From a virus: 64,000 nucleotides of DNA. A program made the translations under genes and the position numbers. The stretch spans positions 1 through 64,000 of IMG/VR virus record IMGVR_UViG_3300020183_000046. One strand, 5' to 3'. Positions 5,120-7,996 of the stretch are shown here, piece after piece (positions within the stretch are counted from its first letter, which is position 1; the number at the start of each line of letters is the position of its first letter). Under the pieces are notes generated by a model. That model was not told the DNA's origin. It saw only the letters and a list, made by a program, of their open reading frames with translations, and did not search any database.

Positions 5120-5818
5120 TTATATAGCATCTGGATCCTCTTCTAGAAGAGCTATGCCATGTTTTGTTAACTGTTCAATACTATAATCGAGAATGACAAT
5201 AATCCTGTCATGACTTCCCTCATGCTTAACCCAGTGCTTGTCATGATCTTTGAATGCAAAAACCTCACCGACATTCCATACTCTTCTTCTTCCTCTGACT
5301 TTAATCCATGCGCCAGGATCTGTAACGACAGGAAAGTGAATACGGAGTGAATCGATGTCTCCACAGTGAGGATTAATAATTGTTCCTGGAGAAAGACGAG
5401 AAATAGTTGCAGACTTTAAAAGTTTATTATCAATATCTTCCTGTAAGTATTTAAAGGTAAGAGGACAAGTTTTAATAAAACTTTGTCTTATTAAAGGAAG
5501 AATCTCTTGACATCTTTCTGTTGTGGTATTGAATAGCTTTGTGAAAGTAACCATCTCACTGAGCTCAAAGTCCTCATCAGTTGCAGTGGTTCCCACACAG
5601 TTAATTGGGAATGGAATAACTCTCCAGTCACCATCCCACAACTTAACTCTACCAAGGTTACGATCATCAACCCATTTATCCAAGCGCCATTCATCAAGTA
5701 TTCGTTGATTGTCTTCAACGAAACTTAAAACTTCTGGGATAATGTCTTGATAATATGTTTGAAGATTACGAAAAGAGGATAGCGTTTGAATGCTATCCTC
5801 ATGCCAAATTTTTCTCAT
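5120..5818 (-). CDS. Aspartyl/asparaginyl beta-hydroxylase-family 2OG-Fe(II) oxygenase
   Basis: SRLSPGT.I.PHCGD..LRIHFP...F.D...HWVKH....RI..ILD. Confidence 0.85.
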   Translation of the reverse strand: MRKIWHEDSIQTLSSFRNLQTYYQDIIPEVLSFVEDNQRILDEWRLDKWVDDRNLGRVKLWDGDWRVIPFPINCVGTTATDEDFELSEMVTFTKLFNTTTERCQEILPLIRQSFIKTCPLTFKYLQEDIDNKLLKSATISRLSPGTIINPHCGDIDSLRIHFPVVTDPGAWIKVRGRRRVWNVGEVFAFKDHDKHWVKHEGSHDRIIVILDYSIEQLTKHGIALLEEDPDAI

Positions 5819-5821
5819 ATA

Positions 5822-5995
5822 TTATCTTTGCTCTGGGCAACCCTTAGTTCCATGTACGGGACATTCTACACCTTCTTTGGTGTGATTGCAAGCCGCTTCT
5901 ACTTTTTGTTTAGGTGCCTTTGGCATCTTTTTGTCGCCTTGCTTCTGTCCCTCTGGGTCTTCGATCTCAGGCATGATCTCAACGGGACCGACTAC
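5822..5995 (-). CDS. Cys/His-containing ORF; candidate -1 frameshift extension of 5992-7410 (or a separate 50-aa ORF from ATG 5974)
   Basis: -1 frame is open for 57 codons after A AAA AAG: VVGPVEIMPEIEDP...CNHTKEGVECPVHGTKGCPEQR. Confidence 0.6.
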   Translation of the reverse strand, partial: VVGPVEIMPEIEDPEGQKQGDKKMPKAPKQKVEAACNHTKEGVECPVHGTKGCPEQR

Positions 5996-7410
5996 TTTTT
6001 TTCAGCGATCTCCTTACGCCAGTCAGAGAAGGTATGCTCTTTCTTAACACAGTTAGGAACTTCCTTACCACCTTTTTTCTTGGTGCCTTTTGCTTCATAA
6101 CCATCCCAGCAGGTAGAAGCACCGACGTTAGCACGAGCAGCTTTCATGCCCTCTTCAACCTCTACCTCTTCCTTCTTGGTTTTGTTAGCGTGCTTCCAAG
6201 CAGTAGCGTAAGCGATGGACTTTTCCTTCTCAGTCAGGTTTCCATCTTTTGAATATGACTTTTTGATGTGCTTCACCGTGCGCTCTGCTTTATCACCAGG
6301 AGGAGCAACCTCATCAAGTTCTACTTCTTCTTTCTTAGCAGTCTTTGCTGCTTTCTTGAAGGCATCCTTTGCAGGATAATCCTCTTCACCTGGTCTAGCT
6401 GGACGCTCGCCACGCTCTCTCTTAGCGTGGATATTTGCATAGAGACCTTTCTTCTCTTCAATCTCTCCAACCTCTTCCTTCATCTTCTTACCCATCGCCT
6501 TGGAAACAGCGGCGCGACGGTTCTTCAAGTACGAATCAGATGAATCAGAATCTCCATCATTATCTACATCGTCATCTTCTTTACCAACTGGATCAAGCTT
6601 CTTTGCTTTCTTTGCTTCGAGGACTTCTTGATTCTTCTCATCGTTGATGACATGCTCATGCATTTCGCTAACGAGAATATTAAGTGAAGCAACAGAGACA
6701 TTATGCTCAAGACCATGCTCAAACATAACATCATAGTGAGTGATGTTACCTTGCTCATCGAGTGTATGCATCTCCTTGATGCAGTTACCCTCTCCCCACT
6801 CAGAGTGCTCAACTTTAGTAGCGCAAGAGTGCTTAGGTTTCTTAACCTTTGGCTTACCCTGTGTTCCAGCTGGTTCTGCCATCTTCATGCCAGGGGCATC
6901 ACCGCCTCCGACTCCAGATGCACCAAGACCTTTAACGTCTTTGTTTGCCATCTTGGCAGAGTTATCATAACGCCAGGTCTCATCCACACGATCCAGGGGA
7001 CCTTGATATTTTACTTTGCCAGAAAGTGCGGCGACTCCAGCTAATACGTACTCGTTGTTTTCCATCTTATCTTTTTTGGGGTCTGGGGGAATGACTTGTT
7101 TTACTTTAATTTTAGAGAAGGGTTGCTTCTTTTCTCCAGGAGTCAAAGACTGGAGATACTCTCGGTAAGCATCAGTGCCGATTTCAAATGCTTCTTTGAT
7201 ATCGGTAATCCATGTCCTAAAAGTTGTTTCCTCAGTAGTCAAACAGAGAACATAATTTGGTCCACGGCGGATGATCTTTCCAACCTTTCCACTTTCCGTA
7301 AGAATCCACTCACCTACTTTATAAATTTCATTACGATAAAACTTGTTACGGTTGATGTTTGTTTCCGCAACCTGTGCTTTCTTATGGAACTCGCTAAAAC
7401 TATTCATCAA
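5992..7410 (-). CDS. Modular, highly charged late protein (putative internal head polyprotein)
   Basis: N-terminal globular domain (GKIIRRGPNYV..FRTWITD), then short K/E-rich modules separated by [ILV]xE motifs; TATAAATA upstream. Confidence 0.7.
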   Translation of the reverse strand: MMNSFSEFHKKAQVAETNINRNKFYRNEIYKVGEWILTESGKVGKIIRRGPNYVLCLTTEETTFRTWITDIKEAFEIGTDAYREYLQSLTPGEKKQPFSKIKVKQVIPPDPKKDKMENNEYVLAGVAALSGKVKYQGPLDRVDETWRYDNSAKMANKDVKGLGASGVGGGDAPGMKMAEPAGTQGKPKVKKPKHSCATKVEHSEWGEGNCIKEMHTLDEQGNITHYDVMFEHGLEHNVSVASLNILVSEMHEHVINDEKNQEVLEAKKAKKLDPVGKEDDDVDNDGDSDSSDSYLKNRRAAVSKAMGKKMKEEVGEIEEKKGLYANIHAKRERGERPARPGEEDYPAKDAFKKAAKTAKKEEVELDEVAPPGDKAERTVKHIKKSYSKDGNLTEKEKSIAYATAWKHANKTKKEEVEVEEGMKAARANVGASTCWDGYEAKGTKKKGGKEVPNCVKKEHTFSDWRKEIAEKK

Positions 7411-7431: not shown

Positions 7432-7439
7432 TATTTATA
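7432..7439 (-). promoter_or_regulatory. T4-type late promoter
   Basis: Exact TATAAATA. Confidence 0.75.
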
Positions 7440-7441
7440 AC

Positions 7442-7996
7442 TCATGACATATTAGACCTAATCTCTTCCATCAATTTCCGCGCATCTGAATCACTCAAAG
7501 CCTTTGGAATACCAGATCTAAACGTTGCCAGATCTCCAGCAAGAGCTGCTCTCCGCATCTTGGTTCCAGATATTGCAAATGTATCTCCATCAGCATCTCT
7601 TTCACCAGAAGAGATCACTTCAAGTTTCCTAAAAAAGAAGTCCTTACCATTATACTTTTTAATCCACTGCATAGCAGGAACTCGATCAGATCCAACTACC
7701 ATAACAGCATCATCATATCCTTGTGTCTGCAGCTCTTGCAAGATTGATACTGGATCTTTGGGTCCACTGCGAAGATTGTTTGTAGCCCAAGGAAACATCT
7801 TCTTAGCGTAAAATAATTTACGATCTGGAGGTAATGGATTTTGCCCCTTACTATCTACACTCTGAGACAAATAAATGTACCAGTCACATCCTCCAGCTTT
7901 TGATCTGACTGCTCTAAAGTTTTCTTCGTGTCCTATAGTTGGTGGTTGAAATCTACCAAAGGTAAAGTAGACGCATTTATAATCTACTATTTCCAT
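7442..7996 (-). CDS. Cytidylyltransferase-like (HxGH superfamily) nucleotidyltransferase
   Basis: FGRFQPPTIGHE, VVGSDR and ISGTKMR motifs. Confidence 0.85.
   Translation of the reverse strand: MEIVDYKCVYFTFGRFQPPTIGHEENFRAVRSKAGGCDWYIYLSQSVDSKGQNPLPPDRKLFYAKKMFPWATNNLRSGPKDPVSILQELQTQGYDDAVMVVGSDRVPAMQWIKKYNGKDFFFRKLEVISSGERDADGDTFAISGTKMRRAALAGDLATFRSGIPKALSDSDARKLMEEIRSNMS

What the first reader, a model, noticed from the sequence alone, without database searches (positions are those of the whole stretch)
5822..6015. dnaX-like programmed -1 ribosomal frameshift adding a Cys/His tail to a late head-cargo protein
Seen on the minus strand: AAG GAG ATC GCT GAA AAA AAG TAG. The heptamer A AAA AAG (6001-5995) sits in the correct phase directly before the stop. 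An SD-like AAGGAG (6015-6010) lies 8 nt upstream, and a possible stem (GTCCC...GGGAC, with inner GATC/GATC) begins 6 nt downstream. The -1 frame is open for 57 codons and ends in C-x9-C-x2-H-x4-C. The alternative ATG at 5974 lacks a clear SD. Known: A AAA AAG with an upstream SD and a downstream stem is the E. coli dnaX/IS911 frameshift architecture. Inference: two isoforms (472 and about 529 aa) are made at a set ratio, the longer with a putative Zn-binding module. I know of no description of this in a T4-like head-associated gene.
Basis: partly seen in the sequence, partly recalled or inferred. Interest (0 to 1): 0.85.

Follow-up and report, generated by a model that had tools for sequence, protein, structure and literature searches.

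The report
Conserved -1 frameshift extends cyanophage protein
At the end of a late gene of unknown function in this T4-like cyanophage, ribosomes very probably slip back one base on A-AAA-AAG, so some copies gain a 57-residue tail with a Cys/His knuckle that is now annotated as a separate small gene; the mechanism is textbook, but it is not recorded for this gene.

Summary
On the minus strand a 471-aa late ORF (ATG 7407) ends GCT GAA AAA AAG TAG, with the heptamer at 6001-5995.

The heptamer alone is not above chance (24 copies in the window, 29 expected). The comparative evidence is strong:
- In 82 related contigs or phage records (62 distinct junctions, including P-HM1, P-HM2 and MED4-213), GAAAAAAAG is invariant and in phase. 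A 0-frame stop follows 0-1 codons later, and the -1 frame is never closed.
- The spacer before the conserved ATG evolves as -1-frame coding sequence, with indels of 3 nt only.
- Phages Bellamy and S-SM2 carry the same two modules in one frame, and there E-K-K is encoded without a slippery run.
- Two host-genus genomes each have a single tRNA-Lys(UUU).
- An SD-like motif lies 7-15 nt upstream in all junctions.
- A hairpin starts 6 nt downstream. It is significant in relatives but weak in this window.

No protein or RNA data exist. "Head cargo" was not tested. The scan's first stage noted the same cassette on another genome (e1-5348331) without follow-up. I file it as a new member of the dnaX/IS3-type -1 frameshift signals.

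The parts
7432..7439 (-). TATAAATA, which matches the T4-type late promoter consensus, 24 nt upstream of the ATG of the long ORF
   Evidence: Sequence read. That this is the late promoter consensus comes from my own knowledge of T4-like phages. Its function was not tested.
5992..7407 (-). 0-frame ORF of 471 aa plus a TAG stop. It belongs to the modular protein family phrog_22379, which GenBank names 'possible cytitidyltransferase' (T4-GC 534). Its last module is CWDGYEAKG..PNCVKKEH.
   Evidence: It has no Pfam family.
6010..6015 (-). SD-like AAGGAG, 8 nt 5' of the heptamer
   Evidence: An SD-like 4- or 5-mer lies within 17 nt upstream in 62 of 62 junctions, against 18% / 12% of windows in the upstream ORFs. 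It occurs in two codon phases, CAG GAG and AGG AGY.
5995..6001 (-). Slippery heptamer A AAA AAG in the X XXY YYZ phase of the 0 frame
   Evidence: GAAAAAAAG is invariant in 62 distinct junctions, while all 13 upstream 0-frame third positions vary.
5992..5994 (-). 0-frame stop TAG directly after the heptamer
   Evidence: TAA or TAG follows 0 codons (76 loci) or 1 codon (10 loci) after the heptamer in relatives.
5947..5988 (-). Candidate stimulatory hairpin (GUCCC..GGGAC with an inner GAUC/GAUC) that starts 6 nt 3' of the heptamer. The ATG lies in its apical part.
   Evidence: It is weak in the window (z -0.42). In relatives z ranges from -1.8 to -4.3. On the alignment the named helix is 79% paired against 31-57% for slid controls, and pairs 48-68 and 38-77 covary.
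5825..5995 (-). -1-frame extension of 57 codons (VVGPVEIMPEIEDPEGQK...CPEQR), followed by TAA at 5824-5822
   Evidence: The -1 frame has no stop between heptamer and ATG in 0 of 62 junctions, against 62 of 62 in the 0 frame and 35 of 62 in the +1 frame.
5972..5974 (-). Invariant ATG (M in VE[IV]MP). It is the annotated start of the 50-aa small ORF (phrog_32143, T4-GC 535) and may serve as an independent start.
5837..5890 (-). C-x8-C-x2-H-x4-C module (CNHTKEGVECPVHGTKGC)
   Evidence: C37, G43, C46, H49, G50 and C54 are invariant in 52 sequences. The AF2 model has pLDDT 66.5, and there was no PDB match.

Best explanation
This is a programmed -1 ribosomal frameshift.

Proposed mechanism:
- Ribosomes translate the 471-aa late ORF and reach GAA AAA AAG with tRNA-Lys(UUU) in the P and A sites.
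- AAG is read only by wobble, because the host genera have no tRNA-Lys(CUU).
- An SD-like AAGGAG 8 nt upstream, the adjacent 0-frame stop, and (more clearly in relatives) a hairpin 6 nt downstream slow the ribosome.
- A fraction of ribosomes re-pair one base back (AAA AAA), skip the TAG and read GTA GTC GGT... for 57 more codons.

This gives two proteins. One is the 471-aa form. The other is a 528-aa form carrying an acidic/basic linker and a CCHC (probably metal-binding) knuckle.

In related phages the same site leads into longer -1 ORFs of 175-262 aa that add more modules, including DUF6321.

What is shown: the signal, its conservation, and the coding nature of the spacer. What is inferred: the slip itself, its ratio, and any function of the tail. 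The invariant ATG may also let the small ORF be made on its own.
For: 1. Anatomy is as described.

2. The related loci were fetched with peptide patterns that do not include the heptamer. All 86 loci (82 distinct contigs or records, 62 distinct junctions) have AAAAAAG in phase at the end of a 319-503-codon ORF. A stop follows 0-1 codons later, and the -1 frame is open into the CCHC module.

3. GAAAAAAAG is invariant at three synonymous sites, while all 13 upstream third positions carry 2-4 alleles.

4. The spacer between heptamer and ATG has no start codon, and in most loci a -1-frame TGA lies directly before the A run. Yet it shows -1-frame third-position variation. GGN uses all four bases and CCN uses three, and the residues are G-P-[VI]-E-[IV]. 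Of pairwise codon differences, 46% are synonymous, against 24% and 1.7% in the other two frames. Spacer lengths are 8, 9 or 10 codons before the M, so indels are 3n only.

5. Rosetta-stone evidence: Bellamy gp123 and S-SM2_109 carry CW..PNCVKK, then a linker, then CCHC, then DUF6321, all in one frame. Their consecutive segments align to frame 2 and then frame 1 of L099, with the switch at the heptamer. In the window the switch is from frame 1 to frame 3. In those single-frame genes E-K-K is GAA AAG AAA or GAG AAG AAA, which is not slippery. L048, L049 and L067 are further in-frame forms.

6. An SD-like motif is present in 62 of 62 junctions against 12-18% background. Its 3' end lies 7-15 nt from the heptamer, and it occurs in two codon phases.

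7. The hairpin's 5' arm starts 6 nt downstream. Relatives give z -1.8 to -4.3, and there is covariation at synonymous sites.

8. Prochlorococcus SS51 (37 tRNAs) and Synechococcus RCC307 (41 tRNAs) each have one tRNA-Lys, with anticodon UUU.

9. An exhaustive profile search found no clean one-frame 'repaired' orthologue.
Against: - There is no protein, ribosome-profiling or RNA evidence.
- The ATG is invariant, and every gene caller and GenBank record treats the small ORF as a gene of its own.
- The window's own downstream structure is not better than shuffles, and RNAalifold finds no single consensus over all 62 junctions.
- The junctions are related to each other, so the counts overstate independence.
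- The SD-like motif partly follows from conserved residues (W-R-K-E, F-R-S).
- The true host of this lake-water phage is unknown, so the tRNA result is by proxy.
Confidence: 0.75

Rival explanations
1. Two ordinary genes. The small 50-aa protein is made only from its own ATG (5974), either by independent initiation or by termination-reinitiation after the TAG 18 nt upstream. The heptamer would be just an E-K-K tail.
For: - The ATG is invariant.
- phrog_32143 and GenBank annotate a stand-alone ORF.
- Gene callers start 200+ homologues at this M.
- From my own knowledge, SD-independent starts are common in marine picocyanobacteria.
- The stop-to-ATG distance suits translational coupling.
Against: This reading does not explain several observations:
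- invariance of three synonymous sites in GAAAAAAAG, when Bellamy and S-SM2 encode E-K-K differently;
- -1-frame coding periodicity and 3n-only indels upstream of the ATG, where no start codon exists;
- single-frame homologues that join both modules;
- the ATG sitting inside the hairpin.

It can coexist with frameshifting, but it is unlikely as the only route.
Confidence: 0.12
2. Transcriptional slippage. RNA polymerase adds one A in the A7 run, and the A8 mRNA encodes the same fused protein.
For: The product would be identical (E-K-K-V...). Homopolymeric A runs are known sites of slippage; this is from my own knowledge (Thermus dnaX, IS elements).
Against: - From my own knowledge, A7 is shorter than the runs of 9 or more that slip efficiently in bacteria.
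- The run never lengthens in any of 62 junctions, although a longer run would favour slippage.
- The conserved SD-like motif and the hairpin at 6 nt are stimulators of ribosomal shifting, not of RNA polymerase slippage.
- No RNA run was available to check.
Confidence: 0.08
3. Artefact or pseudogene. A homopolymer sequencing error or a recent mutation split one ORF.
For: Error-rich long contigs do show A5 or A6 at this run, together with further frame breaks (P0118, P0174, P0175).
Against: - The same A7 stands in 3 isolate genomes and about 80 metagenome contigs from many samples.
- Four assemblies at 19-31x show no indel.
- No clean one-frame orthologue exists.
Confidence: 0.02

Closest known systems
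E. coli dnaX tau/gamma -1 frameshift cassette
   Same: It shares the A AAA AAG heptamer, an upstream SD-like element, and a stem-loop about 6 nt downstream. The host decodes AAG with a single tRNA-Lys(UUU).
   Different: In dnaX the shift leads quickly to a stop and gives the shorter gamma. Here the shift bypasses an adjacent 0-frame stop and lengthens the protein by 57 aa (175-262 aa in relatives). SD spacing is 7-15 nt rather than 10. The window's own stem is weak. The gene is unrelated.
IS911 / IS3-family OrfA-OrfAB frameshift
   Same: A AAA AAG lies near the end of the upstream ORF with SD-like and structural stimulators. The fusion protein is made by -1 shifting, and the downstream ORF can also have its own start.
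   Different: This is not a transposase. The ORFs barely overlap, because the 0-frame stop abuts the heptamer. The extension is a small CCHC module.
Phage T7 gene 10A/10B and lambda G/GT (phage -1 frameshifts that give C-terminally extended minor forms)
   Same: A late phage gene yields a major short form and a minor extended form from a slip near the 3' end. The site is conserved across relatives and is usually missed by annotation.
   Different: The heptamers, genes and genome positions differ. This gene is not a capsid or tail-chaperone gene, and its protein has unknown function.
Single-frame modular proteins Bellamy gp123 / S-SM2_109 (T4-GC 119), next to the terminase gene
   Same: They have the same module order: CW..PNCVKK, linker, C-x8-C-x2-H-x4-C, and (as in long-form relatives) a DUF6321 C-terminus.
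   Different: They are encoded in one frame at another locus. They have no slippery heptamer at the linker and lack the VEIMPE..DPDG linker.

Membership tests
dnaX/IS3-type -1 programmed ribosomal frameshift signal | X XXY YYZ heptamer in the correct phase of the upstream ORF | tested here: met
   A AAA AAG lies at 6001-5995 in phase. It is in phase in 86 of 86 loci.
dnaX/IS3-type -1 programmed ribosomal frameshift signal | Heptamer conserved beyond what the protein requires | tested here: met
   It is invariant in 62 distinct junctions, while all 13 upstream third positions vary. Single-frame homologues use AAG AAA instead.
dnaX/IS3-type -1 programmed ribosomal frameshift signal | The -1 frame downstream is open and evolves as coding from the shift site, not only from an internal start | tested here: met
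   0 of 62 junctions have a -1-frame stop in the spacer. The spacer shows third-position periodicity, 3n indels, and 46% synonymous differences against 24% and 1.7% in the other frames.
dnaX/IS3-type -1 programmed ribosomal frameshift signal | Upstream SD-like stimulator | tested here: met
   AAGGAG lies 8 nt upstream. The motif is present in 62 of 62 junctions against 12-18% background. Only presence was tested, not function.
dnaX/IS3-type -1 programmed ribosomal frameshift signal | Stable downstream structure 5-9 nt from the heptamer | tested here: inconclusive
   The window gives z -0.42. Relatives give z -1.8 to -4.3, with the stem starting 6 nt downstream. Covariation is 0.223 against 0.147 in shuffles, with 0 of 500 shuffles reaching the observed value. 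RNAalifold finds no single consensus.
dnaX/IS3-type -1 programmed ribosomal frameshift signal | Host lacks tRNA-Lys(CUU), so AAG is shift-prone | tested here: met
   There is one tRNA-Lys(UUU) and no CUU in Prochlorococcus SS51 and in Synechococcus RCC307. These are proxy hosts, and the window's own host is unknown. The window encodes no tRNA.
dnaX/IS3-type -1 programmed ribosomal frameshift signal | Transframe protein observed | not testable with these tools
   No RNA holder was listed. No proteomics covering this gene was found.
Zinc-knuckle-like CCHC module | Four invariant metal ligands with fixed spacing and a compact fold | tested here: inconclusive
   C37, C46, H49 and C54 are invariant in 52 sequences. 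AF2 gives pLDDT 66.5 with no clear fold. There is no PDB or Pfam match.
T4-type head-internal (gp21-processed) cargo protein | Presence in virions, a capsid-targeting sequence, and protease cleavage | not tested
   Only a late-promoter-like TATAAATA was seen. The virion proteomes published in PMC3037559 do not cover T4-GC 534/535.

The most novel reading that the evidence does not exclude
The frameshift site could be a conserved 'module junction' in a family of bead-on-a-string cyanophage proteins. The 0-frame body stays fixed, while the -1 frame carries interchangeable C-terminal cassettes:
- a 57-aa CCHC knuckle in this window;
- CCHC plus extra modules plus DUF6321 (175-262 aa) in about 20 relatives;
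- CCHC fused onward to the TlmH-like 2OG hydroxylase in another lineage (P0005).

On this reading, recoding sets a fixed fraction of the protein that is tethered to variable cargo or enzyme.
Probability: 0.3. Interest if true: 0.7.

Novelty: new member of a known kind. Interest (0 to 1): 0.6.

Why it matters
T4-like cyanophages are among the most abundant viruses in the sea and in lakes. Current annotations of P-HM1, P-HM2, MED4-213 and about a hundred metagenomic contigs list two unrelated 'hypothetical' genes here.

If the slip is real, one more late protein of these phages exists in two forms at a set ratio, and the small Cys/His ORF is really a C-terminal domain. This would correct gene models. 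It would also give a compact, strongly conserved -1 frameshift cassette that works in cyanobacteria, which would be useful as a reporter. Together with other candidate sites noted by this scan, it would suggest that recoding is a routine expression device in cyanomyoviruses.

Tried and rejected
- A megablast of 3 kb against phage records gave only a 96-nt hit.
- Pfam gave nothing for either ORF, and the ESM Atlas gave only the uninformative 'possible cytitidyltransferase' clusters.
- RNAalifold found no consensus structure over all 62 junctions, because clades use different 3' partners.
- AF2 of the 58-aa tail gave pLDDT 66.5, too poor for a fold search. A PDB profile search gave 0 hits.
- No RNA holder was listed among the sequencing runs, so expression and A8 transcripts could not be checked.
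- Apparent one-frame 'repaired' forms (P0118, P0174, P0175) carry further frame breaks and sit on long contigs. I rejected them as homopolymer errors.
- P0113, a 1589-aa Big-repeat protein, matches only GPVNIMPQID and is a chance hit.
- Literature searches found no description of this site. The terms were: cyanophage + frameshift/slippery, Prochlorococcus phage + frameshifting, DUF6321, locus tags, and P-HM2 proteomics.
- The second AAAAAAG in the same gene (6078-6072) is in the AAA AAA G phase and is not shift-prone.

Full report
**What is there.** The window is part of a 78-kb IMG/VR contig of a T4-like cyanomyovirus. Its nearest isolates are the Eurybiavirus phages P-HM1, P-HM2 and MED4-213.

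On the minus strand a long ORF ends ...CGT AAG GAG ATC GCT GAA AAA AAG TAG. Its real start is ATG 7407, preceded by TATAAATA at 7439-7432.
- The heptamer A AAA AAG is at 6001-5995, in the X XXY YYZ phase.
- AAGGAG is at 6015-6010, 8 nt upstream.
- TAG follows the heptamer directly.
- GTCCC begins 6 nt downstream.

The -1 frame is open for 57 further codons to TAA 5824-5822.

The long ORF belongs to phrog_22379, which GenBank names 'possible cytitidyltransferase' (T4-GC 534). The small ORF belongs to phrog_32143 (T4-GC 535). Neither has a Pfam family.

**Is it more than chance?** The heptamer by itself is not: AAAAAAG occurs 24 times in the window against 29 expected. The case rests on comparison with relatives.

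I fetched relatives of the small ORF from IMG/VR with peptide patterns that do not include the heptamer region, and added the three isolates. All 86 loci that carry the CCHC module have the same layout. These are 82 distinct contigs or records with 62 distinct 110-nt junction sequences, and mean column identity is 70%.
- A 319-503-codon ORF ends xxx GAA AAA AAG.
- A TAA or TAG follows 0 codons later in 76 loci and 1 codon later in 10.
- The -1 frame is open from the A run into the module.

GAAAAAAAG is invariant, including three synonymous sites. All 13 preceding 0-frame third positions carry 2-4 alleles.

**The spacer is translated.** Between the heptamer and the conserved ATG there is no start codon. 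In most loci the -1 frame has TGA immediately before AAA AAA. Yet this stretch evolves like coding sequence in the -1 frame:
- The residues are G-P-[VI]-E-[IV]-M. The Gly codon GGN uses all four third bases and the Pro codon CCN uses three, while second positions are nearly fixed.
- Of pairwise codon differences, 46% are synonymous, against 24% and 1.7% when the same bases are read in the other two frames.
- No junction has a -1-frame stop there. All 62 have one in the 0 frame and 35 of 62 in the +1 frame.
- The spacer has 8, 9 or 10 codons before the M, so all indels are multiples of three.

Only ribosomes that enter the -1 frame at the A run can translate this stretch.

**Rosetta-stone evidence.** At another locus, next to the terminase gene, Synechococcus phages Bellamy (gp123, 618 aa) and S-SM2 (SSM2_109, 708 aa) encode the following in a single frame...CWKGYEKKG..PNCVKK, a linker, C-x8-C-x2-H-x4-C, further sequence, then DUF6321.
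- Consecutive segments of these proteins align to two frames of the long-form relative L099. Residues 405-427 match frame 2 and residues 440-618 match frame 1, with the switch at the heptamer.
- In the window the switch is from frame 1 to frame 3.
- In the single-frame genes the E-K-K before the CCHC module is GAA AAG AAA or GAG AAG AAA. The slippery run is absent exactly where no shift is needed.
- L048, L049 and L067 are further in-frame examples.

In about 20 relatives the -1 ORF is 175-262 aa long and adds more modules, ending in DUF6321.

**Stimulators.** An SD-like 4- or 5-mer lies within 17 nt upstream in 62 of 62 junctions, against 18% / 12% of windows in the upstream ORFs. Its 3' end is 7-15 nt from the heptamer. 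It occurs in two codon phases (CAG GAG and AGG AGY), which argues for nucleotide-level selection.

Downstream, folds of relatives begin a stem 6 nt after the heptamer (9 nt in P-HM1). They are more stable than dinucleotide shuffles, with z from -1.8 to -4.3. For a named 12-bp helix on the alignment:
- 79% of cells pair, against 31-57% for slid controls.
- The covariation score exceeds all 500 shuffles.
- The changes include synonymous-site pairs, such as CCC:GAG against CCU:GAA, and AUC:GAU against GUC:GAC.

However, clades use different 3' partners and RNAalifold finds no global consensus. The window's own fold is not significant: -13.7 kcal/mol, z -0.42, with an A.C mismatch at a covarying pair.

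The host side fits. Complete genomes of Prochlorococcus marinus SS51 and Synechococcus RCC307 each have a single tRNA-Lys with anticodon UUU and none with CUU. From my own knowledge, this is the condition that makes AAG shift-prone in E. coli. These are proxy hosts; the window comes from lake-water metagenomes.

**Artefact excluded.** Four independent assemblies at 19-31x show no difference or indel over 5700-6300. The A7 run is the same in isolates and in contigs from many samples. An exhaustive profile search found no clean one-frame orthologue. The few 'fused' ORFs sit on error-rich long contigs with additional frame breaks.

**Rivals.**
- Separate initiation at the invariant ATG remains possible as an additional route. 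The ATG lies in the apical part of the hairpin, 18 nt after the stop. As the sole route it leaves the heptamer invariance, the coding spacer and the single-frame homologues unexplained.
- Transcriptional slippage would give the same protein. However, A7 is short, the run never lengthens, and the SD-like motif and hairpin are stimulators of ribosomal shifting.

**What is not shown.** No transframe protein or RNA has been seen. The shift ratio is unknown. Zn binding is inferred only from four invariant ligands, and AF2 gave pLDDT 66.5. 'Head cargo' is untested: the only support for 'late' is the promoter-like motif, and the published virion proteomes do not include this gene family.

**Known or new.** I found no paper describing this site. 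The paper that annotated P-HM1 and P-HM2 does not mention frameshifting. The mechanism is the textbook dnaX/IS3 type, so this is a new member of a known kind.

The scan's own index holds a first-stage note of the same cassette on another genome. That note (e1-5348331) describes a long form, 401 aa plus a 211-aa DUF6321 ORF, and was not followed up. The index also holds unverified notes of other A AAA AAG sites in cyanophage genes. My analysis of the L099-type loci independently agrees with e1-5348331.

Noticed in passing
window 5816-5824 (minus strand); protein P0005: The small ORF's stop (TAA 5824-5822) and the ATG of the next gene (5818) are in the same frame, one codon apart. That next gene is an Asp/Arg beta-hydroxylase-like, TlmH-like protein (PF05118). 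In some relatives the stop is replaced, giving a 281-aa CCHC-hydroxylase fusion ORF. P0005 and several other 281-aa members are seen on 5-12 contigs each.
   Followed up: partly
L099:1498-2157, L108, L146 and about 20 other loci: In many relatives the -1 ORF after the same heptamer is 175-262 aa. It holds CCHC, KYARMVKHIKK..IAYATAWKH, a Cys-rich CKPIPKG module and a C-terminal DUF6321. The transframe product there would be about 600-650 aa and would mirror Bellamy gp123.
   Followed up: partly
L168:1620-1720 (MED4-213) versus L167:1600-1720 (P-HM2): The paralogous modular gene between gp16 and gp17 (T4-GC 119) is intact in P-HM2. In MED4-213 it is split into two overlapping ORFs by a one-base difference in AATAAAA(A)GAAG. 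This could be a mutation or a sequencing error, and there is no canonical heptamer.
   Followed up: no
L166 (S-SM2_109), nt 1896 of the ORF: An in-phase A AAA AAG lies in the AAWTKKSGK start of the DUF6321 module of S-SM2_109. The same spot in Bellamy is out of phase, so the site is not obviously conserved.
   Followed up: no
window 7432-7444 (minus strand): TATAAATA overlaps the end of the upstream cytidylyltransferase-like gene (stop at 7444-7442) and lies 24 nt before ATG 7407. The long ORF therefore probably has its own late promoter.
   Followed up: no
whole window: The contig is held almost identically by 20 lake-water metagenome runs of 2018. Its closest isolates infect marine Prochlorococcus. 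The contig has no psbA and no tRNA gene.
   Followed up: no
proteins P0118, P0174, P0175 (ENA contigs of 4-172 kb): Long, error-rich contigs show A5 or A6 at this A run and further frame breaks nearby. They produce spurious 'fused' or truncated ORFs in protein catalogues.
   Followed up: partly
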